DNA of 64,000 nucleotides from Paludibacteraceae bacterium (GTDB taxonomy: Bacteria; Bacteroidota; Bacteroidia; Bacteroidales; Paludibacteraceae): positions 57,315 to 121,314 of the forward strand of contig JAFYZR010000082.1 in assembly GCA_017557345.1 (NCBI GenBank). The letters run 5' to 3'. The notes under the pieces are model-generated. The model ran no database searches. It was not told the origin of the DNA and was given only the letters and a program-made list of their open reading frames with translations. How positions within the stretch are numbered: the stretch's first letter is position 1; every line of letters begins with the position of its first letter. The position numbers and the translations under genes were made by a program. Of this stretch, positions 7,239 through 52,325 are shown in pieces.

Positions 7239-7318
7239 GGCAAAGTGGCAAAGTTGACAATCTTGCTGAAAATGAGCGAATTATCTTGTTTTGAACTTTG
7301 CCACTTTGTCACTTTGTC
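7239..7318. repeat. Inverted pair of tandem 8-mers (GGCAAAGT x2 ... ACTTTGCC ACTTTGTC ACTTTGTC)
   Basis: Left arm 7239-7254 and right arm 7295-7310 pair at 15 of 16 positions around a 40-nt loop. The right arm overlaps the stop codon (7317-7319) of the DUF3987-like gene. Confidence 0.8.
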
Positions 7319-8543
7319 ATCCTACTTTTTTATATACACCGTATTGGGTTTTAGTTATGAGACCATCATTAAGCCATTTTTCATTCCATCTAAATGCCGT
7401 TCTTTGTGATATCCCTTGTGACCTTGCTTCTTCTACAAGCACCCTATGAGGATATTCTGTCGGCAACTGTTTAAATAGAATCTGGCGTTGGTCCAGTGGC
7501 TTGATTTCCGGGATAAGATCTTGCTTGTCGCCTTCAATCATCCGATAAGCCGTAGCCATGTGAAGGAGCAGTTTGTTGCCTATTCGTTCGGCTGTTTCAT
7601 AATCTACGTCCGCGCAAGTAGAGAAATTACCGCGAAGCGCAGATAGAATCATAGCTATGCGTTCAATGTGGATAGCCATTCTAACAACAGCAGAATGGAA
7701 ATTATCTCCCAGCAACCCGATGAGTGTAGTATAGGTTGTTTCCAAATGCAATCCAAGCCGTTCTTTCTGTTTCTCCGTCAGCGTCCATTCATGTTCGTCA
7801 TGTTGCAAGAGCAATTCATAGATACTTAAAAGTTGTCGTCCTACTTGTTGCGGAATGGTACTTTGTGTTGGTTTGGCAGAAACATAAAGTTTGTTGAACG
7901 GATGTGTTTCGCGTATACAAAGTGTCAGTAAACGGGAGAAATAACCGTTTTCAACGGATGGAACTAAAGCACGATACTGATTGAATGTGCCGGTAAGGAG
8001 CATCGATAGTCGCGGACTTTGTATTTCCGAAGAGCTTTTACAACGATTACGGCTGATGGGCTCATGTTCTGCCGCTTTGCGCAAAGCTGTGTTATAGTTA
8101 GCCGCAGCTGTGCGCCAAATATCCGTTATGACCGATCCTTCGGATTCATGCATATAACCGCATCCGTTGCGTTCGGCAAGCGATTTGTACCATGCCGCAA
8201 GTGTACTATCTCCCGGAATGAGTAGCGGATATTGCTCATCAATCACCCGGAGCATCTCAAGCGCTTGATTGGCTATTCCTTTGCCGGATGCCGAAGCCGC
8301 TAAGATAAAACATTGCAGATTGGCATAATACTGCTTGCCGGTTGGTCCGTACCGGAAATAGAGATTAGGAACGCATGCGCTCGAGGCAGTTAGCATCGCC
8401 ATAATAAGGATGTCTTGCTCTTCAGGCGTGGATGCCAAAGAAAGCATTTGTTGAATAGGTGTTGGCAGGTTGTGCAAGTTGAGATGTTCAACGATGCGGA
8501 GGTTAGCCTGTTCCTCACAAACAAAAGAAGAGAATTTCTCCAT
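7317..8543 (-). CDS. DUF3987-like mobile-element protein (tentative) with C-terminal HTH-like tail
   Basis: 408 aa. The N-terminal LPTPIQQML...ILAASASGKG segment resembles DUF3987 proteins found in Bacteroides integrative elements. The call rests on memory of that family only. Confidence 0.4.
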   Translation of the reverse strand: MEKFSSFVCEEQANLRIVEHLNLHNLPTPIQQMLSLASTPEEQDILIMAMLTASSACVPNLYFRYGPTGKQYYANLQCFILAASASGKGIANQALEMLRVIDEQYPLLIPGDSTLAAWYKSLAERNGCGYMHESEGSVITDIWRTAAANYNTALRKAAEHEPISRNRCKSSSEIQSPRLSMLLTGTFNQYRALVPSVENGYFSRLLTLCIRETHPFNKLYVSAKPTQSTIPQQVGRQLLSIYELLLQHDEHEWTLTEKQKERLGLHLETTYTTLIGLLGDNFHSAVVRMAIHIERIAMILSALRGNFSTCADVDYETAERIGNKLLLHMATAYRMIEGDKQDLIPEIKPLDQRQILFKQLPTEYPHRVLVEEARSQGISQRTAFRWNEKWLNDGLITKTQYGVYKKVG

Positions 8544-8619
8544 AGTTAAAGGTTTTTTTAAGATTAATAATATTTATTTAGTCAGCCCGAGCGGACTGAA
8601 TGTTTTTCAAAATCGAGCA

Positions 8620-8627
8620 CAAAGATA
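8620..8627 (-). promoter_or_regulatory. -7 box TATCTTTG (minus) upstream of the DUF3987-like gene
   Basis: Plus strand CAAAGATA. The same 10-mer ACAAAGATAC recurs at 8693-8702. Confidence 0.4.
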
Positions 8628-8946
8628 CAAAAATATTTTGGAATATGCAAATTTTTGTCCCTCGGTTAGCACGTTCGGTAATGAAAAACGCTACAAAGAT
8701 ACGATGAACATTTGCCTTTTTCCAAATTTTTTTGCAAAAAAATGCACAATTCTTATTCCCTATATATTCACTCTATGTTAACAAGTTTATATCGTCTTCT
8801 GTAAGTTGTTATTGATACACAAATTAGGTTGCAACGCCAACAGGCGTTTACGGCAAGAATTTAGTTGTTCTTTGGTGAGTTTATACTCCTCAAACAAGGT
8901 TAAATTATTGTCTAAATTACGAAACATAGCATTCTTTAAGTTTTAT

Positions 8947-9960
8947 CTATCCGTTCAAACCAATAGTATAGAACTCCATATCGGACATAGTGTAATCAAA
9001 ATCAAAACCACGACGCTCAAATTCATCTCGAATTTCTTGCCACTTTCCTTGATTTACTAATGGATATATTTCTTTGTTAAATTCCACGAAACGCAGTAAA
9101 ATGTCTGTCTTGCCAAGCATACCTAACGACCATACCATAGAACTAATGATAGGGATGTCACAGAGGCTATTATCAGTTATGTGAGGTTGTTTTGACCAAC
9201 GAGGATTGACACGCCAAGGGTTTCTAATATAATAATAGCCGATAGCATTCAATACGTTTTTATAGAATAATTCTTCTGCTTCTTCATCTCGCACAGGTAT
9301 TGATTGACGGGCGCAGAGATAGAGGTAGGCACTATCAGAAAGTTGCTCGCGGTCAATTTCAAAGGACGACGGCAACCGCAGGCGGACTTGAAGATAATTA
9401 TAGTCCTTGGCTAAATCCTGACGGTTATCGAGAACAAAGGATTGTGGGAAATGGTGACAGATGACGCGAGCGGACTCCATCTCATGGTGCTCATGCCATG
9501 CTTTTTCGACAAAAGGTGTGTAATAGTCATCCCAATGGGTGTCCAGATAACGGAGCGCGAACAGACGGTCAACGGAGGCGTTCTCAAAGAATGTACGAAG
9601 AATTTTTTGCTGTTCTTCAAAAGAGACATATGGCACACGTTCTTTGAGAGCCTTACGGGCTTTTATTCGCATTCCTTTCGTATCAAATTCCTTCAACAGT
9701 TGTGCCGTTGTTTTATTACGCGGTGCGGGGTCGAACTGATGGATAGTGCGTTGGTCTGCTTTGGCTTTGTGCTCTACCTGTACGCGAATCCAACTCGGAA
9801 TGCGAAAATTATTAGGCTCCGCAAGAGATTCGTCTTGCAATGACGCAACGAGCGCATAGCGAATTTTATGAGAAGGGCTATACTTTTCATCGTTTTCAAA
9901 TGTATCCCAACCATCCCAGTTGTTTTGCTCGAAAACATTGTTTAATTCATGTGCTGTCAT
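8947..9960 (-). CDS. Hypothetical protein (337 aa)
   Basis: Long ORF 38 nt downstream of the DnaB-like gene on the same strand. No motif recognised. Confidence 0.5.
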   Translation of the reverse strand: MTAHELNNVFEQNNWDGWDTFENDEKYSPSHKIRYALVASLQDESLAEPNNFRIPSWIRVQVEHKAKADQRTIHQFDPAPRNKTTAQLLKEFDTKGMRIKARKALKERVPYVSFEEQQKILRTFFENASVDRLFALRYLDTHWDDYYTPFVEKAWHEHHEMESARVICHHFPQSFVLDNRQDLAKDYNYLQVRLRLPSSFEIDREQLSDSAYLYLCARQSIPVRDEEAEELFYKNVLNAIGYYYIRNPWRVNPRWSKQPHITDNSLCDIPIISSMVWSLGMLGKTDILLRFVEFNKEIYPLVNQGKWQEIRDEFERRGFDFDYTMSDMEFYTIGLNG

Positions 9961-9998
9961 AGAAGTGTTGTTTTAAAAGATGATATATTCGTAGTCAA

Positions 9999-10850
9999 CT
10001 AAAACGGAAGATCAGACGGGGTGGAACCATCCTCTGCAACCCAAAGTTCGTGCTCAGGGTCATATACGCGAGCTGTATGGTGGTCAAACCGAAGCTTCAT
10101 CCCCTCGCAATCGCCCAAGTTATATCCGTATATATACATACATCCACGAATATCTTCACCCGTTCGTTCGTCATTGTATATATGATAATATTCCGGACGA
10201 TATGAGAAGATTATTTTCTGAGCATAATAAGCAAGATCTCCTCCCCAGAAGTCTCCTAATTGAGGTTGTTTTCCTTCAATACCACAACGTTCTTCCGTAT
10301 TGAGATTCAAACCATCAGCCACAACAATGCGGGTATCTAACATATAGGCTAAATCTCTTAATTCACGACACATATATTCTTCAGGAGTCATTCCGGTGCT
10401 TATCAATCTATCGTCAATCACTATATCTTGAAGGCTATCAATAAAGATACAATATGGACTTATCTCGCTTACATCGTCCCATAGTTTCGTTTTGATAGCG
10501 TGAAAATCATCAGCATGGAATAAGTGTGCAAAGTAAAGTGGCACATCTTTTAAGAAGGGGCACGAACACCCCTCTGTCCGACCGACATACCGACTGATTT
10601 TATCCGCTATTTTATGATGAGGATGTGCGTAGTACACAACTCGCTTACCAGCTTTAGCCATTTCAAGCGCCATTGATACCATGAGAGAAGTGCCACCCAT
10701 ACAGGGGTGGGAACCCACAAGAGTTAAATCTTTCTCTAAACTTTCACAGAGGCGCTGAAAACCACCTCGTTTTAGAGATTAGTCAACCTTGTTGGATTCA
10801 ATTCGCTTTGCGTAAGCGTCAACGATAGAATATATTTGTTGCGTTTTCAT
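9999..10850 (-). pseudogene. DnaB-C/RecA-like ATPase gene interrupted by an in-frame TAA
   Basis: ATG at 10850 reads MKTQQIYSIVDAYAKRIESNKVD, then TAA at 10779-10781. The same frame continues SLKRGGFQRLCESLEKDLTLVGSHPCMGGTSLMVSMALEMAKAGKRVVY into the 239-aa ORF. The Walker A position reads GGT instead of GKT. Confidence 0.6.
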
Positions 10851-11638
10851 AATGAGAAAAATGTAGTGTCAGAAGAAATCGTATTGAGCTGGTCATCATA
10901 TTCGCTTGAGGCTTGATATAATAAATACAAATCACCATTCTCATCTACGTGATATCCATAGGTGCCCCAAGCATAACTGCCTTCATACAAGAAATTTGTA
11001 ATGGTTTTATGAGATGAGTCAAATTGTGTATTCGCGTCTACCGAAAAATATGTGGGATCATTAACAGGGATTTTTATGGATAACTCTGAGTCAGTGATGT
11101 CATATATTTCATAGCTTGGGCCGCTTTTAGAACCACCCATGAAAAATCCTAAAAGCAATTCTAATTCACCATCGAAGTCAGCATCGTAGAATTGATATTC
11201 GGCATATGGCAGCAGGGGATTGACCGCATATGCATACGGCTGTGCATTGTAATGGAAAACGTACGAGTCGCCGTTCTTAAAACCGGAGAAATCTCTGGCT
11301 CTTACGATTTCGTATACATTTTTGCTCATAAACAAATTCTTGAAACAATGGCACTTTTCATTCCAATCAGTCCATACATATTCCTTGCCAGATTTTTGGG
11401 AGCGGAAGAAAATGCGTGCGCCATTTTCATATTCACTCCAACCATTCTTCTGCGAGTGATATGGATAGAGAATCCCGCTCACCTCAAAATCATTGATGAT
11501 GGTATCAAAACGGAAGTACACGCTAATAAAACGAGTGTCGTTCTGCAGCGGATTTTTAATTGCCAATTCTTGCACCCAATCATTGCCATATACAGCAAGC
11601 GAGAATATAGCAAATGAGATAAATAAAAAGCGTTTCAT
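10847..11638 (-). CDS. Secreted hypothetical protein with FG-GAP/VCBS-like DADFDGELELL motif
   Basis: Start taken at ATG 11638 (MKRFLFISFAIFSLAVYG signal peptide). Its TGA overlaps the ATG of the next gene (ATGA at 10847-10850). Confidence 0.5.
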   Translation of the reverse strand: MKRFLFISFAIFSLAVYGNDWVQELAIKNPLQNDTRFISVYFRFDTIINDFEVSGILYPYHSQKNGWSEYENGARIFFRSQKSGKEYVWTDWNEKCHCFKNLFMSKNVYEIVRARDFSGFKNGDSYVFHYNAQPYAYAVNPLLPYAEYQFYDADFDGELELLLGFFMGGSKSGPSYEIYDITDSELSIKIPVNDPTYFSVDANTQFDSSHKTITNFLYEGSYAWGTYGYHVDENGDLYLLYQASSEYDDQLNTISSDTTFFSL

Positions 11639-11817
11639 GGAGTTTTTTGTGTATTTAAATACGATGGTGGCAATGCCAACAATAATAATGGCTGCCTTAT
11701 TCATAGTTGTAGTTAGTAAAAAAGTTCGTGAATGGAGTTAAGGTTTAGTCGATAATTTCTATCGATAACCTGGGCTTATTCAAAGATGGTATCCACTTCT
11801 TCATTTAATGTAAATTT

Positions 11818-12681
11818 TTACTTAAAAACAAATGATTCTAATTGTGTCATTACTTCCCAAAATTCTCGTGGAAGACGTAAGCGCATTTCCTCAATGATAT
11901 ATTCAGGAATGTCATCATAGAACGCATGTGCTATTCCGCCTGTGATGCAAGCAAGTGTATCACTATCTCCACCAAGCGAGACCGCTAATCGAATAGCAGA
12001 TTCAAAGTCATGGCTATCAAAGAAAGCTATGAGCGCCGGAGGAACAGTGCCTTGACACGACGCCTCCCAACCATAAGAAGGGCGTATCTCATCGCATGTG
12101 TGATGCAAATCGTAGCCAAACGTTTCCTCAATACTTTCTCGAATCGTTTCTTTTGAATCGCCTCTATGAGCCATCCAGATTGCAACAGCAACAGCCTGCG
12201 CGCCTTTAATACCTTCCGGATGGTTGTGGGTGATTTCAGCAGACCGTTTGCCTAATTCCATTGCATCCCGAAACGTATATGCAGCCCAACCACAAGCGGA
12301 AGCTCGCATGGCAGAACCATTGCCCCAAGAATTATATGGATGCCGTTCTAATGACCTACTATAAGTCATATCTTCACGACTATAATCGGCGAGCAACTGC
12401 GGAGCAAATAACCATCTTGAAAACCCGCCTCCATAGCCCCCCATAGGGCAAGGATACTTCTTTGCCCACGAGACAAGCTTATCTTCCAATGCAGATTGAG
12501 AGCGGTCTGTGCTACTTAACCAATCTGCAACGGCAATAGTCATAATACTATCATCCGTATAGTTAGCCTGCTTGTCAAACAATGGCTGAAAATCCGGAGA
12601 TTTGATATTGTCAAACTCATAAATCGAGCCGACGGTGTCACCAATTAGGGCGCCTAAACAAGGATAATATCGCCATTTCAT
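11818..12681 (-). CDS. ADP-ribosylglycohydrolase family protein (DraG/Tri1/ARH-like)
   Basis: GALIGDTVGS near the N-terminus, GNGSAMR, and a C-terminal GGDSDTLACITGG. These are the characteristic ARH metal-site motifs. The start could also be 12717. Confidence 0.8.
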   Translation of the reverse strand: MKWRYYPCLGALIGDTVGSIYEFDNIKSPDFQPLFDKQANYTDDSIMTIAVADWLSSTDRSQSALEDKLVSWAKKYPCPMGGYGGGFSRWLFAPQLLADYSREDMTYSRSLERHPYNSWGNGSAMRASACGWAAYTFRDAMELGKRSAEITHNHPEGIKGAQAVAVAIWMAHRGDSKETIRESIEETFGYDLHHTCDEIRPSYGWEASCQGTVPPALIAFFDSHDFESAIRLAVSLGGDSDTLACITGGIAHAFYDDIPEYIIEEMRLRLPREFWEVMTQLESFVFK

Positions 12682-12745
12682 ATACGTACTATTATATGAG
12701 CGTGATTTCGGGAACATGTATTTAATTTAAGAGCCAATCGTTGTA

Positions 12746-12782: not shown

Positions 12783-15716
12783 CTATTCATCTTGCTGCAT
12801 TGCTGATAGCCTATAATTACGATGTAATTTTTCTAAAAGGAAAGTCGCTCCACAAACCTTATTTGTACATGCATAATCAAGATCCGACCTTCCGATAATC
12901 ATTTCTAATTTAGATCCACATTGGGGACAATATATCTCATCTCTTTCCAAATGACCTATATGATTTTCAACGGCCCTCTTCAAACTTAGCGGAATAGAAT
13001 CTGGTCTATGCTCTTGCAAAAATGACAACCTACGAGAAAAAACTTGATGTGAACAACATGTTGCACATCGACCGCAGATTACCCATCCATTAGGACACTT
13101 TTTGGTATCACGTTCATCTATCGGTTCCTGACAATCAGGATTAAGGCAATGACTCAAATAAATTTTCAACCCTTTCTTGATACAATTACTGTTTATGCAC
13201 TCATAATGCGAAGATACGGACACCCCAAGATTCGTCAATCCCATTGATGGCATCATTAACCGACCGCACTCTCTACAGAATAAATGCTTAGCAAATTGAT
13301 TAAATCGGTTAATCAACGTAACAAATTTAAGATATTTACCATTAACGCACCGATGTCCAGCATAGTCTACTTCACTCATATCGAACCCCATTATATGACA
13401 GAAGTCATACATAGTGTACTCTTTCCAATCTGAGTGAAAAACCAATCTGTTTTTAGCGCAATAAGTGTTACGACACCAATAGCGTGTATTCCCCATTTCG
13501 TCTTTTTTCTCTAGTTCTCTCCCCTCGCAAAATATTACCCCATGTGGTCTTCCATAATTTCTTTCTATTCTTCTTTTTCCTATATACTTCCCTCTATCAT
13601 CATATTCATCTTTATATTTTCTCCATTCGATTCCTCCGCACTCGTCAAAGAGTTGGTAAATAAGAGGATGTGACCGTTCTCTAAAATCCTCGTTTGTTAA
13701 ACTAGTTAACAACAACGATAAAATATCACGCTCAACAAAAAACTCTTTCCGAACTTGGAATTTAAGCATCGCTTCAATCACAAGATCTACATCAAAACAT
13801 ACATGAATTTGCTTGTTATTGTGCTGCAACTGTTGATTTTTAGAAGTCAAGACTAGTAATGGCTCAAGTGATTTTGAGATAAAATTACTCTCCATCAAGT
13901 AAAAGATGTAGCGCAGGATTTTAACTTGTTCATATTCGGAAAACAAATAGAAATACTTCGAAAGTTGGTCAAATTCAATTTTTTTATCTTCCGAATCAAC
14001 TTTTACATAATTTTCATACCACTCTATGACAGATAAATATTCACTATCATGTTTTGGAACATTAAATTTAATATCTAATTCTTTGAACTTTCGCAATAGC
14101 AAGTAATCAAAAGCAAAACGTTCCTCTGACATGTCTTTAGTGGATTCTAATTTGGAAATATACCAATCATGCATAATCTCCTCGGCAAGATTTTTATCTA
14201 TATAGCCAAATTTGAACCATTCATTAAGCCCCCTTATAGGATCCTGATTATCGTTCAACATCATGCGAAGCCACTCATCTTTTGAGGGAGCAGGAACAAT
14301 TTCACATCTCCATAACTTCACATATTTCCCATCAACAACTTTTTTTGTTTCCTGAATAATATCATCTACTAGTTGAGACATACTCGTTTCCCATCTGTTC
14401 ATATGCGCGCAAGCGGAACTTCCGTCCCAACCTGAATGTTCCCTCAAAATAACAGCGCACGCTTTTACAACAAGTTTTGCTTCCTCTATATGAGTGTTGT
14501 AAAATTGAACAATGGTATCATCATCACAATTTTCTAGCGTTTTAACAATAGCTTCATCACTAATTCTATCCCTAAGCGACAAGTCAAAATTAGAGATGTA
14601 AAGCCAAGCTTTTTCCTCGTCCTCTAAATCTGCATACTGAGAAGCATAACAATCGCGGAAACGCGAACATGTCATCTCAGCAACATTATGGCTTTCCATC
14701 GCCATTATGAATTCTGCATCATTTCTGTAATCACCAGTAAAGAAAGCTTCTACTGCTTTGGCTTTCACAACAAAATCTTCTATCTGTTCAATGATACCTA
14801 ACAATATCTCCTTATGCGTGAAGAAGGAATGAAAAATATGGACTAACTTGTTTGACTCTATATCGGGTAAAATATATTTTGAGAGGCATAACAAGAAATT
14901 CGCATTAATTTCGTCAGATTGTCCTAAAGATTTTACCTTAACCAAAGTTTTGCAACATTGTTCAAATGTATAATCAGCTTCACACTCAAGTAGATAAGGC
15001 TTAGTATCGAGCAGAATATCTGCATAATCCCCAGATTTAGCCCAGTGAACGGTAGAATACGATTGCAATGCCCGAACTAGCGCAGAAGAAGCAATTTTTC
15101 TATAGCCGATATCACCTTTCCAAAAATGTTCAAAAATAAATGTAAAACCATCTTCCTCTTTAGGATGTCGAACCATATAGGCTGTCATCCTTCCTTTTCT
15201 CTTGTCAATTGCAGCCTTGTAAAATACCAAGTCGCCATCAATTATAGTTTCACCCTCTTGGCAATTATTTACATGATAAAAGCATTCGTCCCCATTCTCG
15301 TTTTTTACTAGCCCATAAACTTGATAACCATAGTGTCCATCCCTGAATAGTTGAACGATACCATACGAAAAAGGCACGTCTTTAAGCCAGCTCTCATTAC
15401 TATCCCTAACATATCGAAAACAAGGATTATTTTTCTCATCTTTGTCACGATGCTTACTTTCCAATTGAGAATTGGATTGCACGACAACTTTTGGAATTAT
15501 TTTTCCATAAGCGTTAGTAACGGTTTCGAATCTCACACCATCAACGCCTTTGTCATCGATATTTTTAAACTGTTGCTCTAAGCGTGAGTACAAATCATCA
15601 GACAGCCTATAATTTGGATCACTTTCAACTTCAAAGCCATTGCTCTCACACCACTGCGTTAGAGTAGACATCCCAATGTTTAACTCCTTACATGCTTTTA
15701 TTAGTTTTACAGCCAT
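12783..15716 (-). CDS. Large uncharacterised protein: IF2-N-like HTH, cold-shock-like barrel, helical core, four C-terminal zinc ribbons
   Basis: Start at ATG 15716 (MAVKLIKACKELNIGMSTLTQWCESNGFEV). YGIVQLFRDGHYGYQV...DGDLVFYKAAIDKRKGRMTAYMV is CSD-like. C-terminal Cys pairs: CRNTYC, CRECG...ECINSNC, CLNPDC...CPNGWVICGRCATCC, CPQCG...CTNKVC. Confidence 0.6.
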   Translation of the reverse strand: MAVKLIKACKELNIGMSTLTQWCESNGFEVESDPNYRLSDDLYSRLEQQFKNIDDKGVDGVRFETVTNAYGKIIPKVVVQSNSQLESKHRDKDEKNNPCFRYVRDSNESWLKDVPFSYGIVQLFRDGHYGYQVYGLVKNENGDECFYHVNNCQEGETIIDGDLVFYKAAIDKRKGRMTAYMVRHPKEEDGFTFIFEHFWKGDIGYRKIASSALVRALQSYSTVHWAKSGDYADILLDTKPYLLECEADYTFEQCCKTLVKVKSLGQSDEINANFLLCLSKYILPDIESNKLVHIFHSFFTHKEILLGIIEQIEDFVVKAKAVEAFFTGDYRNDAEFIMAMESHNVAEMTCSRFRDCYASQYADLEDEEKAWLYISNFDLSLRDRISDEAIVKTLENCDDDTIVQFYNTHIEEAKLVVKACAVILREHSGWDGSSACAHMNRWETSMSQLVDDIIQETKKVVDGKYVKLWRCEIVPAPSKDEWLRMMLNDNQDPIRGLNEWFKFGYIDKNLAEEIMHDWYISKLESTKDMSEERFAFDYLLLRKFKELDIKFNVPKHDSEYLSVIEWYENYVKVDSEDKKIEFDQLSKYFYLFSEYEQVKILRYIFYLMESNFISKSLEPLLVLTSKNQQLQHNNKQIHVCFDVDLVIEAMLKFQVRKEFFVERDILSLLLTSLTNEDFRERSHPLIYQLFDECGGIEWRKYKDEYDDRGKYIGKRRIERNYGRPHGVIFCEGRELEKKDEMGNTRYWCRNTYCAKNRLVFHSDWKEYTMYDFCHIMGFDMSEVDYAGHRCVNGKYLKFVTLINRFNQFAKHLFCRECGRLMMPSMGLTNLGVSVSSHYECINSNCIKKGLKIYLSHCLNPDCQEPIDERDTKKCPNGWVICGRCATCCSHQVFSRRLSFLQEHRPDSIPLSLKRAVENHIGHLERDEIYCPQCGSKLEMIIGRSDLDYACTNKVCGATFLLEKLHRNYRLSAMQQDE

Positions 15717-15737
15717 AGTATAAGCGTATTTCAAGAA

Positions 15738-15833
15738 TTATATAGCACCTATATATACAAAATTTGCGTGATATGTTACTAATGTTTTACGTTCATCCCA
15801 AAACGCTACTTCATATTTATCAAAGTATGCCAT
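15738..15833 (-). pseudogene. 31-codon stub of a BspA-type LRR gene
   Basis: MAYFDKYEVAFWDERKTLVTYHANFVYIGAI then a stop. The first 57 nt match the 5' end of the 15856..17277 gene at 48 of 57 positions (my own count). Confidence 0.6.
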
Positions 15834-15855: not shown

Positions 15856-17277
15856 TTACAAGATTTGATTTTTGTTCCTACTTTCTAATTCAAAGTAACA
15901 TTCCTTTGTCGCAAGGATATCTGAAAGAGCATCGTGAGCATCATCAAAATTGCGATTAAACAATTTAAGATATAGTTCTTGTAGTGTGGGCCATTTATAA
16001 CCGCCATAGTACGAATTAGGATTGGGGATCGCGCAAAAGTTCATGGAATTTTTCATTGTGCAGATAGATGATTTTTTAAATAGCGAATCATAGTCCAATC
16101 CCAAACGATATAATTCTGCGCATACAATATGAAGATCAAAATCAACATTATGCCCCACGATCTTCTCCGCACTTTCTAGATCTTTCATGAATTCCTCTAG
16201 AACCAAGCGCAATGGCCAACCTTCTCGCTTTGCTCGTTCGGTTGTTATCCCATGCACTTCTGAGGCTTCGTCTGGGATATTGAAGCCTTCCGGATATATG
16301 ATTGCCGATTTACGTTTAAGTTCAATTCCATCTTCATCCACCAGCAACCATGCTAATTGCACTAAACGCGGCCAATTATCCGAGTCTTTAATAGGAGCAT
16401 TGTAGTTGTGAGGAAGCCCAGCTGTCTCGGTGTCAAAGAAAAGGTATTTTGGTTGAGAGGTGGAGACTTTCTCATTACTCAATGCCTTCGCGTCATAACA
16501 ATAGATATCATCCTCTCCTTCACACGAAAAAACAATCAATTCAATAGATGCAGGATCTACTTTATCTCCTTCTTTAAGTTCGCTTCGAGTTGATAACGGC
16601 CAATAAATAGGCTCGCGTCTTTTTTTTATATGGGCTTCTAATGCAAGCCGGTCATCATAATTATTCTCATCATTGTGAATATCTTTCTTCACTCTAACTT
16701 CTACATATTCAATCATAGCGAGAATGTCTTCTGGAATATTTTCTCTTGCGACTTCCTCCCAGACTTTGCTCTCCGCATCTTCTTCAACTAAAATATCACG
16801 AAAATCCTTCAAACCATCCATCTCTGCAAAACGAGCATATTGGCCTTTGGGTATACGGATTTCTTTTAGCCCTTTACAACCCGTAAAGGCGCCTTCTCCA
16901 ATGTGTGTGACACTATTATGAAGAATTACACTTGTTATACCGGAGCAATAATCTCCTGTGTTAACGGCATGAGTGTGAGCCACAATAATAACCGGCTGGT
17001 AGCAATATGCGAACGCAACCTCTCCTATATTAGTTATGCTATCAGGTATCACTATACTTTTTAGCCCTTTGCACCCCATAAAAGCTCCATCTTCTATACA
17101 AATGACGCTGTCGGGAATAATCACATCTGTCATCCTAAAACAACCTTCGAAGGCGCATTCTCCAATCCTTGTAACGCTGCTTGGGATAGTATATTCACCT
17201 TGAAAGTCTTTAGGGCATCGAACTAATGTTTTTAGATCATCCGAAAACTCTACTCCATATTTATCGATGTATGCCAT
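15856..17277 (-). CDS. Fusion protein: N-terminal BspA-type leucine-rich repeats + C-terminal DEDDh (DnaQ/epsilon-like) 3'-5' exonuclease
   Basis: LRR units have the form IPxSVxxIGxxAFxGCxxL (x4). Exonuclease motifs: YLFFDTETAG (ExoI), GHNVDFDLHIV (ExoII), AHDALSDILAT (ExoIII, DEDDh type). No signal peptide. Confidence 0.75.
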   Translation of the reverse strand: MAYIDKYGVEFSDDLKTLVRCPKDFQGEYTIPSSVTRIGECAFEGCFRMTDVIIPDSVICIEDGAFMGCKGLKSIVIPDSITNIGEVAFAYCYQPVIIVAHTHAVNTGDYCSGITSVILHNSVTHIGEGAFTGCKGLKEIRIPKGQYARFAEMDGLKDFRDILVEEDAESKVWEEVARENIPEDILAMIEYVEVRVKKDIHNDENNYDDRLALEAHIKKRREPIYWPLSTRSELKEGDKVDPASIELIVFSCEGEDDIYCYDAKALSNEKVSTSQPKYLFFDTETAGLPHNYNAPIKDSDNWPRLVQLAWLLVDEDGIELKRKSAIIYPEGFNIPDEASEVHGITTERAKREGWPLRLVLEEFMKDLESAEKIVGHNVDFDLHIVCAELYRLGLDYDSLFKKSSICTMKNSMNFCAIPNPNSYYGGYKWPTLQELYLKLFNRNFDDAHDALSDILATKECYFELESRNKNQIL

Positions 17278-17278
17278 T

Positions 17279-18139
17279 TTACCAATATATAGGTTCTTTA
17301 ATATTTTTTTCTATTATACCTAAATTCATCAGTTTTTTCTTCAAACTTTCATTTTCGCCGTCAGCATGATAATATATAGTCCAGTCCGCAGCATTGATAT
17401 CATGATTGACTTCAATTATCTTCTCCATGTATGGCTTGTCAATCTCGTTCAAAGAAAATCCCATAATGATGAAGTGCTTGATATTAGTGTACTTCTGAAA
17501 AGTTTCATTGTGGAGTTCTATAATTCCTGTTACATTTTTAGCTCCTTTTTCTATTTCTTGATTTATACTATCAATATTTGGATAAAGAAGTTCGTGCGCA
17601 GCCCTACTATCCTCTGCATGTTTCATTAATTTAACGTAATTTGCGCCATGACCTACTATAATAGCGTGTTCATCCTTAGCGAAGTCTATGACAGAGTTAT
17701 GTATATGGCAAATGTTATCTGCGTTGATATTGTATGATTTTTCTAACAGTAATGTATAGTTGAAGGTAAAATACAAAGATGAATTGTTGATAATATCTAA
17801 TAAGGGATGAAAATTAACGTTGATGTTACTATTTACAGATTTAATCCAATTCCCAAAGAACAGAGGCAGGTTCCTAACTAAATTTTGGACTTTATATGGA
17901 GCCATAGCTTCACCATTGTGCGAACGAATAAGATTCAAATAATTTACCTTTCCGAGCATCTCCTCAAAGTTACACCACCACATTTCATCTTTTATATTCT
18001 CATAGCCATAGATATCAACTAAGTAAGATTTTAAAGTAGCATTCCCTTGTACATGAGCATCTCTAAAATCTGAATATTTCGTCGGAAGCTCATGCTTAAG
18101 GTCAAATCCATTCCCAATTATGTATAGAGTATCCTTCAT
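17279..18139 (-). CDS. AbiH-family abortive-infection protein
   Basis: Start at ATG 18139 gives MKDTLYIIGNGFDLKHELPTKYSDF, the characteristic AbiH N-terminal signature. Its TAA (17279-17281) lies 1 nt from the ATG (17277) of the LRR-exonuclease gene. Confidence 0.7.
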   Translation of the reverse strand: MKDTLYIIGNGFDLKHELPTKYSDFRDAHVQGNATLKSYLVDIYGYENIKDEMWWCNFEEMLGKVNYLNLIRSHNGEAMAPYKVQNLVRNLPLFFGNWIKSVNSNINVNFHPLLDIINNSSLYFTFNYTLLLEKSYNINADNICHIHNSVIDFAKDEHAIIVGHGANYVKLMKHAEDSRAAHELLYPNIDSINQEIEKGAKNVTGIIELHNETFQKYTNIKHFIIMGFSLNEIDKPYMEKIIEVNHDINAADWTIYYHADGENESLKKKLMNLGIIEKNIKEPIYW

Positions 18140-18222
18140 TATTTGTGATTTTTCTTGCAACGGCCTCGAATTTATCTCATAAGTCTCTCTCTCGTATAGA
18201 TGGCAGTCGATATATTTAAATA

Positions 18223-19242
18223 TTACTCTCTTGTAATGTGGCTGAAAAAATTGTGCCAATCTATTTCGTCATTGTTATTAGCTAAACGGTAGTATTTTCT
18301 AAGTAATTGGTTTAGTTGTAGTGCATATTCAGCATTGAGCTCGTTATTCTCTAATATTTTCTTGGGCTCGTTCATGAAAGCCCCATATAATTCTTGCTTT
18401 CTTTTATGTTCCTTTTCAATAGTGGAAATGAGGGACGATATTCGTTCATTTAATAGGAATCGTCGATGATTATCTCTATTATATTTTGTTTTTGCTGCAT
18501 TAATATACTTTTGTTCTTCATCAATATAGGTTCTTTCTTGCATTGATTTATCTGCACCTATAATTCTCATGCTAGATGCCGCGCAAAATCCATGATCTCT
18601 ATATATTTTCTCGTCTATTTTCGGGAATAGCGAGTTTATATAACCATCATTGAAAACCTTTGATTTTTTATGAACAAAATACCAATCATCTTTCCCAGGA
18701 CAATTTTTAAAATGCTCCTCATTAATAATTGTAAATGAGTTCAAAATTTGTTCTATGTCAAGTTTATTAATATAACTTTCAACGTCATCTATTACCTCTC
18801 CTAAGGTAGGCAAAGATTGTTTTATAAAATATGTTCGAATGAGTTCTCTTTCTTGCTCTGTGTATCTCCAATCAACATAAACATCACTTCCGTTATTACA
18901 ATATATAATAAATTGGTATCCGCTACCACTATCTACAATAAACTTTGAACTTTTTGCTATACATTCTTTTGGAACACAAATACCATTTTCTTCCTTATAT
19001 AGAATCTCGTCATAGTTACTATATCTATGCAAGGAATTATCGTAGTAGTCGAAATCTTTCAAACCAATTATATATCTAGCTCTATCAGATTTGGAATCTT
19101 CAAATAAGATAGTATCGAGCAGCTGAAACTTTTCTGGCAAATTAGCGTCAGCAACACGAAATGTTCCATCAAGACATATAATAATCCCATTTTTTGAGTT
19201 GCTCAACAACACGCCAACTCTTAAGTTCTTTCGTCCTTGCAT
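18223..19242 (-). CDS. Hypothetical protein (339 aa), very AT-rich
   Basis: Long ORF, co-directional, 37 nt after the Sel1 gene and 83 nt before AbiH. No domain recognised. Confidence 0.5.
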   Translation of the reverse strand: MQGRKNLRVGVLLSNSKNGIIICLDGTFRVADANLPEKFQLLDTILFEDSKSDRARYIIGLKDFDYYDNSLHRYSNYDEILYKEENGICVPKECIAKSSKFIVDSGSGYQFIIYCNNGSDVYVDWRYTEQERELIRTYFIKQSLPTLGEVIDDVESYINKLDIEQILNSFTIINEEHFKNCPGKDDWYFVHKKSKVFNDGYINSLFPKIDEKIYRDHGFCAASSMRIIGADKSMQERTYIDEEQKYINAAKTKYNRDNHRRFLLNERISSLISTIEKEHKRKQELYGAFMNEPKKILENNELNAEYALQLNQLLRKYYRLANNNDEIDWHNFFSHITRE

Positions 19243-32749: not shown

Positions 32750-35700
32750 ATGAGGCACTTGCTCACTCAACTCAAGAATCAGGGTTATTATCTAAACGGT
32801 ATTAAAACGTGGTTATCACCTACTAATAACCTACTAATAACCTACTTATCACCTACTAATCACCTACTCAAATCCCGTGCGCATCGCTGCGCCCAATTCG
32901 CCGTAACTCTCTTAGTTATGGTTGTGCTAAGCGTTGGAAATATGTGGGGAGAGACTGCTGTTGCAACAACTGCAGGAACATATAGTTTTGGTTCTACAAA
33001 TATTGGTGCTGCAAATAAATTTGCCGAAATCTCTACGAATTCTGTGTTTATATACAGATGGGCTGATAATTATTCTACGAGCAATAGTGGAATAAAGGCT
33101 GTATCAGGTAATCAATCAGGTTTTGTATTTTACACAACCTCTCCGATGACATTATCAGCTACCATTTATCAAAATAGTAAAACGGCTGAAACCGTAACTA
33201 TTTATGTTAAATCGATTACATCTGCATTCTTTCAAAATTTAGTAGATGGAACAGCAAACTCAACGACGGTTTCTGCGCCATCATTCTCCGATGTTGGCAC
33301 TTTTAGTGTTGTGGGTAGTACTACAAAACAAGAATATTCCGGCACATACGGCTCAACATTATCAGCAGGATATTATTACGTTTATGCTCGTTCAACAGCT
33401 GGAACATGTAATACTTATCATCGTTCTATTACGCTTGCTGCTCCTTCTTGTCCGACGTTGACGGTAAGTCGCGGAGGAACGGCTGATGGTACATATACGG
33501 TTGGAAACGATGGCGGAACTTTAACTTGTAGCGCAACCACAGGAACAATTACTTCTTATCAGTGGAAACAATATTCGTCTGGGCAAGGAATAGGCGATAC
33601 GATTGATGCCGTCGGATCAGGTGCGACAACGGCATCCTTTACCCCACACCCATTATCTGCCGGTACATACTACTATTTATGCCGTGCAAAAAATGCTTGC
33701 GGAGATGTTGCCGTTACTTCTACTTCCGGAACGTTTGTGTTTAATGCAGCAGGTTGCCCCAGTTATTCTTTCCATACAGGCGGCAATGATGTTAAGACAA
33801 ATAATACGCAGTCTTGTTTCGTACAAGTAGGATCCTCGCATGAATGGCAATTGACAGATTATACTATTCCTGCTGATACAAAATTCTTTGTTGGAGAACG
33901 TGGTTGGTGGTATAATGACAATTTAGGTTCAAATAATTCTCGCTCGTCGGCACAAACATGGGCTGACGAAATGTATTTAGCTATGTCGTTTGATTCGGGT
34001 GATGCCGCAGGAAGTCCTAAACTTGGTCAAGCCACCGGAGCAACTGGAACTATTCGAATTTATGATAATAGTGATTGGAATAATCTTAATGCAGCATTTA
34101 TTCCGGATGGTTATGTACTGAAGTTTGGCAGTTCATATGGATTGTTTACGGAAGGTCCTACAAACGAATTTTTATCGCCACTGGTTACTTATAATAGTAC
34201 AACGGCCGGCTATGCAGTTAGTGTGGGTGTGACGGATGAAAATGACGAGTATGTAAGTACTGCCAATACTCAGGAAATGCGTCATATTTTCCTCAAAGAC
34301 AATTGTGGATGGAGTGCAGATGGAGCTAAATTCGCTATCTATTACTGGAGTGGCGATAGTAATGGTTGGTGTGGTTTCTTACAAACTGTTCCTGGAGAAA
34401 CAAACTTATACGAAGGATGGATACCAGCAAGTTACACAAATTTGAAGTTTGTGCGCTTTAGCAGTTCAAAAACAGCTGTAGGTAGTTGGGATGACAAATG
34501 GAACGAAACGAGTGACTTATCTGTTACTAGTTCTCAGAACTATTTCACAATGTCATCGTTCTCTTCCGGTTCTTGGTCTGCTTATCAAAAGAAAGGGAAA
34601 TTCCGTATAAATGCAAATTACAAGGATAAGAACTGGTTCGTTCGTTTTATTCCTAATTATATTTTGACATATGATAAAAATGATGTGGGAGCGAGTGGAA
34701 CGATGGAAGAACAAGGAGTTGCAGTAGATGCGGTATCTAAAAACGTGACAGTTCTGGCTAATGGTTTTACTGCGCCAGCGGGTTACCACTTTGATACATG
34801 GAAAACAGCTCCGAGCAGTGGAACTTCTTATGCTGCTGGTTCTACTTACAATCTTACTGCTGATGCGACATTGTATGCTCAATGGGCACCGACGACCTAT
34901 ACGATTACTCTTGCTGCTGGCGATCATGGAGCAGCTAATCAATCGGCAACAGTGGTTTATGATGCCACAGCACTTTCTTCCATTACTCATGTCACTGCAG
35001 CTGCGTCCTCGCCACATCAATATTATGATCTAACGGGATATTATGATGGTGAAACGAAGGTGCTCAATATCGATGGAACTTTTGCGGCAACCAACGTGAC
35101 AGGATATATTACTGATGGTAAATGGAGCAAGGCTGATGATTGTACCTTAACTGCGAAATGGACAGGAAAGGTTTATAGTATCACGTATAAAGAAAATGAT
35201 AATTCTACCGTCATTGGCGGTCTCAGTCCAAGTAGTTACACTTATGGCGTTGGTGCCGTTCTTCCAACTCCCACTAAATCTGGCTATACCTTTGAGTCTT
35301 GGTATTTAGCATGGTGTGTTTTTGAAGAAGGCGGTTCTGGAAATGGTTTTGTAGACGGATGTAAAAAAACAGCATTGAGTGCATCTGATCATGGCAGTGC
35401 GACTTATCTTGCTCGCTGGTATCAAACAGTTACATTGGATAAGAACGGTGGTGATGCAGATGGTGCTGTGGTTGCGTGGTGTAATGAGTCAGGAACAACA
35501 TCCCTTTCTGCACCAACTCGTGCGGGTTATTCCGTAGAGGGCTACTATGCTGAGGCTGGTTGTACAAATAAAGTAATGACCGATGCGGGTGTGTTAGTGG
35601 ATTATTCCGGCTATGTAAGTAGTGGTAAATGGATTCATTCCGGCGCTACGACTCTATATGCGAAGTGGACGAAAGAATCTGGTTGTATCAAATGGTCAGG

Positions 35701-44022: not shown

Positions 44023-44038
44023 GACAGGCCTTTTCTTT
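44011..44038. terminator. Hairpin terminator between the convergent genes
   Basis: gcctgtc-attga-gacaggc followed by cttttcttt. The stop TGA sits in the loop. Confidence 0.6.
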
Positions 44039-48912: not shown

Positions 48913-48935
48913 CTCTTAATAGTTATTTTAGTTTA

Positions 48936-50180: not shown

Positions 50181-50184
50181 GATT

Positions 50185-51531: not shown

Positions 51532-52325
51532 ACCAGTCCACCTCCTTTCTCTTCTCCTTCGCTATGATCACCGAAGAAGGATGTCAGACCGATAATAATC
51601 AGCAATACGAGACTTAATACGGCTCCATAATTGAGTAGGTCCGTCGTAGTGATGTAATCCTGTATCAACGAACCGAACAATTTGATATTATTATGCGTCA
51701 ATAGCTCTGCTATTGCGAATGTTGAAACAGTAGGCATAAAGACCATCACGATTCCGCTATAAACACCCGGCATGCTCAATGGCACAATAATCTTCCAGAA
51801 ACAAGTCCAGCGGTTGGCGCCCAAGTCTTGAGCCGCCTCAACGAGCGAATTGTCCATTTTCTGGAGTGTATTATAGATCGGGTAAATCATGAAGGGCAAA
51901 TAATCGTAGCAAAGACCGAAAAGCAAAGCTCCTTCGCCCAATGGCAAACCGCACATGTTGAATAATTCCACTGTAGCTACTGTACGCAAAAGGAAGTTAA
52001 TCCACATCGGCAGGATGAACAGCATTGCCATCACTTTGGGCGTTTTGAAATCCTCTTGTGCCATGATATACGCTGCGGGATAGCCGATTAACAAGCAAAT
52101 CGCAGTATTGAAAACCGCTATCATCAGCGAATATAAGAAAGTCTGAATAGCTTCGCTATGCGAGAAAAACTTCATAAAGTTACGCATGGTGAACTGTCCT
52201 TCTATATCTGTAAAGGCATAGAAACCAACCAGAATAAGCGGCAAGATCACAAACATAGCCATAAAAAGGATGTATGGCCACGCCCAAGTTCTCCGAGACG
52301 ATACTATTTGAATGAATTTATTCAA
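51528..52325 (-). CDS. potB: ABC transporter permease PotB
   Basis: 6-TM permease with the EAAQDLGAN loop. Confidence 0.85.

What the first reader, a model, noticed from the sequence alone, without database searches (positions are those of the whole stretch)
12783..15716. 977-aa protein combining an IF2-N-like HTH, a cold-shock-like barrel and four zinc ribbons
The N-terminus (AVKLIKACKELNIGMSTLTQWCESNGFEV) resembles the small IF2-N/HTH module. Residues ~120-190 follow a CSD-like pattern (YGIVQLF..GYQV..FYHV..DGDLVFY..KGRMTAYMV). The last ~250 residues hold at least four Cys4-type ribbons resembling topoisomerase-type zinc fingers (CPQCGSKL...CTNKVCGATF). The ~550-aa helical centre has no motif I recognise and no obvious catalytic signature. 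It looks like a large nucleic-acid-binding protein of unknown function embedded in the low-G+C module.
Basis: partly seen in the sequence, partly recalled or inferred. Interest (0 to 1): 0.7.

Follow-up and report, generated by a model that had tools for sequence, protein, structure and literature searches.

The report
IF2-tagged cold-shock/zinc defence-island protein
This is a real 977-residue gene, carried on an accessory island of a Paludibacteraceae genome, that joins a copy of the host IF-2 N-terminus, a divergent cold-shock domain, a helical scaffold and an undescribed five-zinc domain whose relatives sit in defence islands and inside type I restriction operons, so it is probably a new nucleic-acid-targeting immunity protein.

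Summary
The ORF is real, but it lies on the minus strand (12783-15716, 977 aa).

- Residues 1-50 are 70-78% identical to the N-terminus of Paludibacteraceae IF-2.
- Residues ~113-187 are a divergent cold-shock domain (hhalign 97.7%).
- The last ~260 residues carry 18 family-invariant Cys plus His922, which predicts five zinc sites.

New findings:
- That zinc region is one conserved domain. It has no Pfam, PADLOC, PDB or Foldseek match. It occurs in at least 600 protein clusters, mostly CSD-helical-(HARP)-Zn proteins of Bacteroidota.
- No neighbouring gene is conserved. Neighbours are R-M, BREX, Abi, retron and WYL genes.
- Some subfamilies sit between hsdS and hsdR. These include 128 Klebsiella plasmids and 265 of 5426 E. 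coli genomes. PrrC holds the same position.
- Sister proteins share the CSD-helical N-part but end in DarT, followed by a NADAR antitoxin. This marks the C-terminal slot as an effector slot.

Best reading: a stand-alone immunity protein that acts on single-stranded nucleic acid. The mechanism is inferred and no catalytic site was identified. The target clade itself is very rare (four sequences).

The parts
12783..15716 (-). Complete ORF, 977 aa plus stop (stop codon at 12783-12785). It is identical to MAG Paludibacteraceae hypothetical protein IKX20_07190.
   Evidence: P0001 is 100% identical
15567..15716 (-). Residues 1-50: a copy of the N-terminal domain of the lineage's translation initiation factor IF-2, at the position of the N1/IF2N domain.
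   Evidence: 70% identity, E 1e-24, to IF-2 P0052 residues 1-50. 577 partial hits, almost all IF-2. The Pfam IF2_N model gives no hit.
15381..15566 (-). Residues 51-112: a poorly conserved linker, predicted disordered.
   Evidence: pLDDT 22-31. Low conservation among the three full-length homologs. No significant match to the second IF-2 N-region motif.
15156..15380 (-). Residues ~113-187: a divergent cold-shock (OB) domain with an insertion in the RNP1 loop, followed by the conserved RHPKEEDGF motif.
   Evidence: hhalign 97.7%, E 1.6e-12. Five predicted strands. Foldseek local CSD hits. CSD present in 23 of 41 relatives.
14337..15155 (-). Residues ~188-460: the first half of the helical scaffold. 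Together with the CSD it forms the 'N-part' shared with DarT-terminated sister proteins.
   Evidence: tblastn of P0160/P0275 against the window, E 1e-33 to 1e-34.. AF2 pLDDT 75-95.
13602..14336 (-). Residues ~461-705: the second half of the helical scaffold, conserved together with the C-terminal domain across the wider family.
   Evidence: Local hmmsearch domain map: ~60-110 of 154 representatives match positions 450-700.
12822..13601 (-). Residues 706-965: the Cys-rich hallmark domain, with five predicted zinc sites: C730/C748/C753 (+H761 or D771); C814/C817/C840/C845; C857/C862/C874/C881; C884/C887/C888 (+H922); C930/C933/C950/C955. Invariant non-ligand residues are Y853, D867 and R869.
   Evidence: Conservation over 201 domains. 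600 representative clusters match. AF2 pLDDT 80.5, pTM 0.71. No PDB or BFVD fold match.
15738..15833 (-). Context: a 31-codon remnant ORF that duplicates the 5' end of the upstream LRR_5 gene (56-nt repeat, 86% identical to 17222-17277). It lies directly upstream of the target start and is a scar of cassette recombination.
11818..12717 (-). Context: an ARH3-like ADP-ribosylglycohydrolase gene 66 nt downstream on the same strand. It is not conserved next to homologs.
   Evidence: Pfam E 2.7e-37. PDB ARH3 E 2e-18. Absent from L001, L003 and L070.
15856..18259 (-). Context: the upstream same-strand genes, LRR_5 + DEDDh exonuclease (15856-17277) and AbiH (17279-18259).

Best explanation
The gene encodes a stand-alone conflict (anti-phage or anti-plasmid) protein carried as cargo of an accessory island.

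Shown: it is a four-module polypeptide.
(i) A copy of the host IF-2 N-terminal domain.
(ii) A divergent cold-shock OB fold.
(iii) A ~500-residue all-alpha scaffold.
(iv) A ~250-residue domain with five predicted zinc sites. This domain is the hallmark of a large undescribed family, built as CSD-helical-(HARP)-Zn.

Inferred:
- The CSD, and the HARP domain in relatives, bind single-stranded or branched nucleic acid made during infection or transfer.
- The helical scaffold couples this sensing to the conserved core, which is the second helical half plus the zinc domain.
- The core is the effector. It either clamps and blocks ssDNA or RNA through topoisomerase-like ribbons, or it is a new metal-dependent enzyme that uses the invariant Y853, D867-x-R869 and H922.
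- As with PrrC, family members embedded between hsdS and hsdR probably act as a second line that fires when restriction is inhibited. The target, which has no adjacent R-M system, would act on its own.

More speculative: the IF-2 N-terminal copy tethers the protein to whatever partner that domain binds in the host (NusA on RNA polymerase in E. coli). That would place the CSD beside nascent transcripts.
For: Architecture.

Family size and shared core: 600 clusters at E<=1e-3 and 215 at E<=1e-30. Domain map. CSD in 23 of 41 relatives and HARP in 8 of 41.

Effector slot: P0160, P0275 and P0276 share the CSD-helical N-part but end in DarT. P0275 is followed 6 nt later by a NADAR-DarT1-type gene and lies next to AbiEi/AbiEii.

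Defence context:
- The window island contains AbiH and an LRR-DEDDh exonuclease. It has low G+C and housekeeping flanks.
- P0003 lies next to type I R-M genes.
- Across 61 genome loci there is no conserved partner, but the neighbours include N6_Mtase, ResIII, Eco57I, PglZ, BrxL, AAA_21/AAA_15, RVT_1, WYL and HepT.
- Type I R-M genes lie within 8 kb in 12 of 48 loci.

Position between hsdS and hsdR: Flavobacteriia, Klebsiella IncF plasmids and E. coli islands that also hold DUF262 and Hhe. In Prevotella pE2-28 the gene follows hsdR in the same operon.

PrrC precedent: PMC1484252, PMC12707154, PMC3506569.

IF-2 N1 binds NusA in E. coli: PMC12297416.

IF-2 N-terminal tags on other conflict-type proteins: an SF1 helicase with S1 domains, an LRR+Sel1+DarT protein and a 2285-aa SACS-domain protein.

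Not phage-borne.
Against: - No experiment exists and no catalytic motif was identified. The zinc domain has no structural or sequence homolog, so calling it an effector rests on domain position and conservation only.
- The target itself is not next to a type I R-M system.
- Its clade has only four members, and no neighbour is shared among them.
- Defence-island enrichment was judged from neighbour lists, without a matched random control.
- Equivalence of the Bacteroidales IF-2 N-terminus to E. coli IF2N is positional only. The Pfam IF2_N model and a PDB profile search both fail to link them. The NusA paper itself notes that the IF2 N-terminus is not conserved.
- The full-length AF2 model is poor outside the helical core.
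Confidence: 0.45

Rival explanations
1. A non-toxic accessory or regulatory factor of restriction-modification or DNA transactions. It would bind ssDNA or fork structures through the CSD, HARP and zinc ribbons to direct, restrain or alleviate type I restriction, for example to protect replication forks or unmodified host DNA. It would not act as an effector itself.
For: Every recognisable module binds nucleic acid and none is catalytic. Several subfamilies are encoded inside type I R-M operons next to other small accessory genes such as YecA, EcsC and M48/SprT.
Against: Most family loci (36 of 48), and the target itself, have no type I R-M gene nearby. Sister proteins place a bona fide toxin (DarT) with a NADAR antitoxin in the equivalent C-terminal position. 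Y853, D867, R869 and H922 are invariant, which is more than zinc binding alone would need.
Confidence: 0.2
2. A function that serves the mobile element: anti-defence, or protection of ssDNA during transfer or replication of the island or plasmid. ArdC would be the analogy, an ssDNA-binding anti-restriction protein.
For: The window island also carries DUF3987 primase-like and DnaB_C-like genes. Relatives occur on conjugative Klebsiella plasmids and in integrase-bearing islands. ArdC precedent: PMC7213743 (listed).
Against: On the plasmids the gene lies inside the R-M operon in the cargo region after traX/finO, not in a leading region. No relatives were found in phage or viral collections. The neighbours are defence genes, not anti-defence genes.
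Confidence: 0.12
3. An ADP-ribosylation-linked toxin whose antidote is the ARH3-like hydrolase encoded 66 nt downstream. This would require a hidden ADP-ribosyltransferase fold in the centre or the C-terminus.
For: An ADP-ribosylglycohydrolase gene lies immediately downstream on the same strand. Sister proteins with the same N-part are DarT toxins paired with an ADP-ribose-removing NADAR.
Against: Pfam, NCBIfam, PADLOC, PDB and Foldseek give no ART or DarT signal in the target. There is no DarT anywhere in the window. The hydrolase is absent next to P0002, P0003 and P0121, and among the neighbours of 61 family loci.
Confidence: 0.05
4. A housekeeping translation or cold-shock RNA chaperone, related to IF-2 and Csp proteins.
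For: It has an IF-2 N-terminal domain and a CSD.
Against: Only four sequences of this clade exist among billions searched. It sits in a low-G+C island between housekeeping genes. Its distribution is patchy and its neighbourhoods vary. It has no GTPase or other IF-2 domain.
Confidence: 0.03

Closest known systems
PrrC / RloC (restriction-linked anticodon nucleases; 'R-M guardians')
   Same: Both are single large proteins. In several subfamilies the gene lies between hsdS and hsdR of a type I R-M operon, which is the position of prrC in the EcoprrI locus (PMC1484252, PMC12707154). RloC is also zinc-responsive (PMC2610378).
   Different: The target family has no ABC-ATPase domain and no anticodon-nuclease domain. 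Its modules are a CSD, a helical scaffold, HARP in some members, and a five-zinc domain. The target itself is not R-M-linked. No activity is known.
DarT1-NADAR / DarTG toxin-antitoxin defence systems
   Same: P0160, P0275 and P0276 carry the same CSD-helical N-part as the target (25-27% identity over ~350 aa, E 1e-33). They sit in defence islands. The target is also followed by an ADP-ribose hydrolase gene.
   Different: The target has the zinc domain where these proteins have DarT. The target's downstream hydrolase belongs to the ARH family, not NADAR or macrodomain, and is not conserved.
CSD-containing defence components (CoCoNuT CnuB/CnuC; retron type V CSD effector, PADLOC CSD_V)
   Same: A cold-shock OB fold serves as the nucleic-acid-binding module of a predicted immunity protein (PMC11090510). 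The PADLOC CSD_V model hits 17 of 41 family members.
   Different: The family has no McrBC GTPase or nuclease, no coiled coils and no reverse transcriptase. The similarity is limited to the CSD.
C4 zinc ribbons of bacterial topoisomerase I / NAD-ligase ZBD / RPB9-type tandem ribbons
   Same: The motifs are of the CxxC...Cx4C ribbon type. The last ribbon scores weakly against DNA_ligase_ZBD (E 2e-4) and RpoM (E 0.005). Foldseek aligns single ribbons.
   Different: All scores are below the family cut-offs. The five sites are embedded in one conserved domain with helices and invariant Y, D, R and H residues. No fold match covers the domain as a whole.
IF-2 N-terminal domain (N1/IF2N), which binds NusA in E. 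coli
   Same: Residues 1-50 are 70-78% identical to the first 50 residues of IF-2 from the same bacterial family.
   Different: The rest of IF-2 is absent. The Pfam IF2_N model and a PDB profile search do not connect this domain to E. coli IF2N. The partner in Bacteroidota is unknown.
HARP domain annealing-helicase proteins (SMARCAL1/HepA-related)
   Same: Eight of 41 relatives carry a Pfam HARP domain just before the zinc domain, which points to recognition of forks or junctions.
   Different: The target lacks HARP. No SNF2 ATPase is present in any member.

Membership tests
IF2_N (Pfam PF04760) / IF-2 N-terminal domain | Significant match to the Pfam IF2_N model | tested here: not met
   No PF04760 hit on the whole protein at E<=0.01, nor on residues 1-60 at E<=5.
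IF2_N (Pfam PF04760) / IF-2 N-terminal domain | Sequence homology to the N-terminus of bona fide IF-2 proteins | tested here: met
   70% identity over 50 aa, E 1e-24, to P0052 residues 1-50. Hundreds of IF-2 hits at E ~1e-12. 73 of 80 metagenome loci with this N-terminus are IF-2.
IF2_N (Pfam PF04760) / IF-2 N-terminal domain | Relatedness to the solved E. coli IF2N structure, and NusA binding | tested here: inconclusive
   A profile of seven N-termini finds no IF-2 chain in the PDB at E<=10. The AF2 model of this part has low confidence. Binding cannot be tested with these tools.
Cold-shock domain (PF00313) | Match to the Pfam CSD model above the gathering score | tested here: not met
   No hit on the target. 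Only a weak PDB hit, 2ytv, E 0.76. The model does hit 23 of 41 wider-family members.
Cold-shock domain (PF00313) | Profile-level homology to canonical CSDs | tested here: met
   hhalign of A7 against A8 (CspA plus family CSDs): probability 97.7%, E 1.6e-12, 71 columns.
Cold-shock domain (PF00313) | Five-stranded beta-barrel with RNP1/RNP2 aromatic residues | tested here: inconclusive
   Five strands are predicted at 116-182, but with pLDDT below 50. Foldseek gives local CSD hits with probability 1.0. The RNP2 F and H are kept. RNP1 has a 4-residue insertion and only one aromatic residue is kept (alignment).
Unnamed CSD-helical-(HARP)-five-zinc family | C-terminal ~250-aa domain with the invariant Cys/His set and Y853, D867, R869 | tested here: met
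   All positions that are invariant in 201 domains are present in the target. Profile hits to 600 clusters.
Unnamed CSD-helical-(HARP)-five-zinc family | Conserved helical segment preceding the zinc domain | tested here: met
   Target positions 450-700 align to ~60-110 of 154 representatives, domain E 1e-8 to 1e-19.
Unnamed CSD-helical-(HARP)-five-zinc family | HARP insertion before the zinc domain (present in a subset only) | tested here: not met
   No HARP in the target. 8 of 41 relatives have it.
PrrC/RloC restriction-linked anticodon nucleases | Gene embedded in a type I R-M operon | tested here: not met
   tblastn with twelve HsdR/HsdM/HsdS queries finds nothing in the window. The feature is met by relatives.
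PrrC/RloC restriction-linked anticodon nucleases | ABC-ATPase N-domain plus anticodon-nuclease C-domain | tested here: not met
   No ATPase or nuclease family hit in Pfam, NCBIfam or PADLOC.
DarT toxins (PF14487) | DarT ADP-ribosyltransferase domain | tested here: not met
   No DarT hit. tblastn with the DarT-bearing P0018, P0160 and P0275 finds only the N-part and the IF-2 tag in the window.
Topoisomerase-type C4 zinc ribbon | CxxC...CxxC/Cx4C ribbon motifs that score against ribbon models | tested here: inconclusive
   The motifs are present. The best model score is DNA_ligase_ZBD at 21.6 bits, against a cut-off of 25.8. There is no zf-C4_Topoisom hit.
Known or candidate defence systems in PADLOC-DB v2 | Match to any PADLOC model | tested here: not met
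   Zero hits for the target. The family matches only CSD_V through its CSD.

The most novel reading that the evidence does not exclude
The five-zinc C-terminal domain is a new class of immune effector: a novel metal-dependent nuclease or nucleic-acid modifier, or a stoichiometric ssDNA/RNA clamp. The CSD-helical-zinc family would then be an undescribed group of 'restriction guardians', present in ~5% of complete E. coli genomes and on Klebsiella IncF plasmids. In the Paludibacteraceae clade, a captured copy of the host IF-2 N-terminal domain would dock the protein onto the transcription-translation machinery (NusA/RNAP or the ribosome) to inspect nascent foreign RNA. That would be host-factor mimicry used as a targeting device. 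The same tag is recurrently fused to other conflict proteins, namely DarT, an SF1 helicase and a SACS-domain ATPase.
Probability: 0.2. Interest if true: 0.85.

Novelty: new variant of a known kind. Interest (0 to 1): 0.62.

Why it matters
If the inference holds, the finding exposes a sizeable unannotated protein family of at least 600 clusters at 50% identity. It has no Pfam, PADLOC or structural counterpart. It lives in defence islands and, in several lineages, inside type I restriction operons, including in clinically relevant E. coli and Klebsiella plasmids.

That would add a new candidate to the very short list of 'R-M guardian' systems (PrrC, RloC, PARIS). It would also supply a new zinc-rich effector or sensor fold.

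The target clade further shows an unusual evolutionary trick. Fragments of the essential host factor IF-2 are grafted onto otherwise unrelated conflict proteins, which suggests a general way of addressing immune proteins to the gene-expression machinery.

The E. coli and Klebsiella relatives make the idea directly testable in a model organism.

Tried and rejected
- Pfam, NCBIfam, PHROGs and PADLOC scans of the whole protein and of five fragments gave nothing above cut-off.
- PDB sequence searches with the protein and with profiles A1, A3, A4 and A10 found only CSDs and single ribbons.
- A weak match of the wider family's helical region to the A. baumannii SpoT linker (7qps, E 2.7e-4) fell to E 0.007-0.02 with a focused profile. 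It covers a helical linker only, so I rejected it as spurious.
- Foldseek of the full model (pLDDT 54) and of the good C-terminal model (pLDDT 80.5) against PDB and BFVD gave no hit at E<1e-3. The matches to Parkin RBR and RPB9 are low-probability.
- I searched for a conserved partner gene among the window, L001, L003 and L070, and among 61 genome loci. None was found.
- The ADP-ribosyltransferase idea was rejected.
- I looked for att-like direct repeats, a tRNA or an integrase bounding the island. None was found.
- The sigma-70 promoter and terminator scan was uninformative, as expected for Bacteroidota.
- The word-indexed protein search with alignments returned very few hits. The exhaustive search was needed to see the family.
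- The metagenome scan seeded from the full alignment retrieved only IF-2-type N-termini.
- The first genome scan with an 18-sequence alignment failed for lack of conserved stretches.
- The second IF-2 N-region motif is present in P0160 and P0139 but not in the target.


Full report
**Observation.** The plus strand of 12783-15716 is full of stops. The minus strand holds an uninterrupted ORF, listed as 12783-15734 from an upstream TTG. It translates from the ATG at 15716 to MAVKLIK...QQDE*, 977 aa. The ATG is the correct start, because the two full-length homologs and IF-2 itself begin MA[VI]KLIK. The protein is identical to a hypothetical protein of a Paludibacteraceae MAG. The gene lies in a stretch of 0.35-0.36 G+C, while the flanks are 0.42-0.47.

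**Island context.** The surrounding same-strand array runs from ~7.3 to 21.3 kb. It is bounded by housekeeping genes: obg, adk and rhomboid on one side, and LMW phosphatase, rluD-like and PASTA genes on the other. The array contains the following genes:
- DUF3987 primase-like
- DnaB_C-like
- an ARH3-like ADP-ribosylglycohydrolase
- the target
- LRR_5 + DEDDh exonuclease
- AbiH
- a Sel1-like protein

No tRNA, integrase or flanking repeat was found.

**N-terminal module.** Residues 1-50 are 70% identical (E 1e-24) to residues 1-50 of a Paludibacteraceae IF-2. Of the 580 hits of the word-indexed search, all but the identical entry and two full-length homologs cover only this ~5% of the query, and nearly all of them are IF-2. 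Pfam's IF2_N model does not score this stretch even at E<=5. A profile of seven such N-termini finds no IF-2 chain in the PDB. It is therefore the lineage's own IF-2 N-terminal domain, and its equivalence to E. coli IF2N/N1 is positional only.

The same tag heads other, unrelated large proteins:
- an SF1 helicase with S1 domains (P0005, L075)
- an LRR_5+Sel1+DarT protein (P0018)
- a 2285-aa SACS-domain protein (L141)
- some wider-family members (P0131, P0139, P0178)

A second IF-2 N-region motif is present in P0160 and P0139 but not in the target. In E. coli, IF2 domain I (N1, residues 1-50, plus two strands) binds NusA on RNA polymerase (PMC12297416). I use this only as a lead.

**Cold-shock module.** Pfam CSD does not reach threshold on the target. 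However, hhalign of the clade's region against CspA plus the family's canonical CSDs gives 97.7% probability, E 1.6e-12, over 71 columns, covering target residues ~113-187. AF2 predicts five strands there at low confidence, and Foldseek returns local CSD hits. RNP2 (F, H) is retained. RNP1 carries a short insertion.

**Helical centre.** AF2 is confident (pLDDT 75-95) for an all-alpha region at ~220-620. Foldseek returns only generic helical repeats. No family library or PDB profile matches it.

The centre has two evolutionary halves:
- Residues ~105-460 (CSD plus first half) are shared with ~620-aa proteins that end in DarT (P0160, P0275, P0276).
- Residues ~450-700 travel with the C-terminal domain in the wider family.

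**C-terminal module.** An exhaustive profile search found 600 representative clusters at E<=1e-3, and 215 at E<=1e-30. Nearly all match only target residues ~715-965, at the C-terminus of 950-1300-aa proteins.

Conservation across 201 such domains:
- C730, C748, C753, C814, C817, C840, C845, C857, C874, C881, C884, C887, C888, H922, Y853, D867 and R869 are 100% conserved.
- C862, C930 and C933 are at least 98% conserved.
- C950 and C955 are 82-86% conserved.

This pattern predicts five zinc sites. The target keeps every invariant residue. With an 18-sequence alignment, AF2 gives a usable model (pLDDT 80.5, pTM 0.71). Foldseek finds nothing at E<1e-3 in PDB or BFVD, only single ribbons. Profile-versus-PDB gives only weak ribbon hits to the last site. 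Pfam (2025 copy) and PADLOC have no model for the domain. The only source name found for a member is 'cold shock domain-containing protein'.

**Wider family and context.** Of 41 sampled members, 23 have an N-terminal Pfam CSD and 8 have a HARP domain just before the zinc domain. Single members have S1, Rho_RNA_bind or DarT.

A scan of one genome per species gave 61 loci, mostly Bacteroidota. It also found Sulfuricurvum, Chlorobi, Ignavibacteria, Cloacimonadota and others. No neighbouring gene is conserved. The immediate neighbours are rich in N6_Mtase, ResIII, Eco57I, SWI2/SNF2, PglZ, BrxL, AAA_21/AAA_15, YhcG nuclease, reverse transcriptase, WYL, HepT and integrases. Type I R-M genes lie within 8 kb in 12 of 48 loci.

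The family is repeatedly linked to type I R-M operons:
- In a flavobacterial subfamily the gene sits between hsdS and hsdR.
- tblastn against plasmids found the domain on 128 Klebsiella conjugative plasmids, again in the order hsdM-hsdS-YecA-[CSD protein]-hsdR-SprT.
- It was also found on a Prevotella plasmid, directly after hsdR.
- The Klebsiella-type gene is chromosomal in 265 of 5426 complete E. coli genomes. There it lies in an integrase-bearing island with DUF262 and Hhe defence genes.

The Klebsiella and E. coli proteins match the domain profile at E 2.5e-21 but lack H922 and the last ribbon. No relatives were found in viral contigs or phage genomes.

**The target clade.** Only P0001 (the target), P0002, P0003 and P0121 are full-length relatives, at 48-51% identity for P0002 and P0003. 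Their neighbourhoods differ. P0003 follows a type I R-M cluster, and P0002 and P0121 have unannotated neighbours. The downstream ARH gene of the window is not conserved with them.

**Effector-slot argument.** The DarT-terminated sisters are followed 6 nt downstream by a NADAR-DarT1-type gene and sit beside AbiEi/AbiEii. In those proteins, the position occupied in the target by the second helical half plus the zinc domain is held by a known toxin. Combined with the extreme conservation of that core, this is my basis for calling it the effector. It is an inference, not a demonstration.

**Mechanism proposed.** Sensing or targeting of single-stranded or branched nucleic acid would occur through the CSD, and through HARP in relatives. 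Coupling would run through the helical scaffold. The zinc-rich core would then act, either as a stoichiometric block on ssDNA or RNA through topoisomerase-like ribbons, or as a new metal-dependent activity using Y853, D867-x-R869 and H922. Operon-embedded relatives would work like PrrC, as a back-up that fires when restriction is inhibited (PMC1484252, PMC12707154, PMC3506569). The IF-2 tag may address the target to the partner of IF-2's N-terminus.

The rival explanations are an R-M accessory factor, a function serving the mobile element, an ART/ARH toxin-antidote pair, and a housekeeping chaperone. They are weighed in their own sections.

**Comparison and novelty.** The protein works most like restriction-linked or defence-island single-protein systems, but it fails every membership test for PrrC/RloC, DarT and PADLOC systems. 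It is a member of an unnamed CSD-helical-zinc family, for which I found no paper in the searchable library. I rate it a new variant of a known kind, namely a defence-island or R-M-linked effector protein. Its hallmark domain may prove categorically new.

Noticed in passing
window 15738-15833 (-) and 17222-17277: A 56-nt direct repeat (86% identity) duplicates the 5' end of the LRR_5-DEDDh gene immediately upstream of the target start. It leaves a 31-codon remnant ORF (MAYFDKYEVAFWDERKTL...). It looks like a scar of cassette exchange within the island.
   Followed up: partly
window 15856-17277 (-): An unusual fusion of BspA-type leucine-rich repeats (LRR_5) with a DEDDh 3'-5' exonuclease. The exonuclease hits the PADLOC DEDDh model at E 4e-26 and PDC-S48 weakly. 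The gene lies directly downstream of AbiH (17279-18259).
   Followed up: no
window 11818-12717 (-): An ARH3-like ADP-ribosylglycohydrolase with no ADP-ribosyltransferase detectable anywhere in the window. Its partner, if any, is unknown. The next gene (10847-11704, 285 aa) has no match in any library.
   Followed up: partly
window 7317-10718 (-): A DUF3987 (primase-like) gene, an unannotated 337-aa gene and a short DnaB_C-like gene (239 aa) form a replication-type module of a mobile element. No integrase, tRNA or att repeats bound the island.
   Followed up: partly
P0005/L075, P0018, L141:315-7169: The IF-2 N-terminal 50 residues (MAIKLIKACKELNIG...) head at least three other non-IF-2 architectures in related rumen or gut Bacteroidales: an SF1 helicase with two S1 domains (1504-1529 aa), an LRR_5+Sel1+DarT protein (840 aa) and a 2285-aa SACS-domain protein. 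The tag plus linker of P0018 is nearly identical to that of P0003.
   Followed up: partly
L065-L069 (P0275): A DarT protein with a long CSD-helical N-terminal extension is followed by a DUF6939/NADAR-DarT1 gene. It is flanked by AbiEi/AbiEii and by an 855-aa unknown protein plus an AAA_11/AAA_12 helicase. It was seen on 24+ contigs, so it is a common gut or rumen defence locus.
   Followed up: partly
L073 (K. pneumoniae p2B5617), L155 (E. coli 005008): A type I R-M operon with three embedded or appended accessory genes: a YecA-family protein, a 615-aa CSD + zinc-domain protein and an SprT/M48 metallopeptidase. It is found on 128 Klebsiella plasmids and in 265 complete E. coli chromosomes. I found no literature on these accessory genes.
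   Followed up: partly
window 32750-44022 (+): A giant ORF of 3134 aa is followed, with overlapping stop and start, by a 622-aa ORF. It was not examined.
   Followed up: no
window 44037-53781 (-): A run of six same-strand ORFs (643, 986, 433, 448, 265 and 487 aa). Their sizes resemble a restriction or defence operon, but tblastn with my HsdR/M/S queries found nothing.
   Followed up: partly
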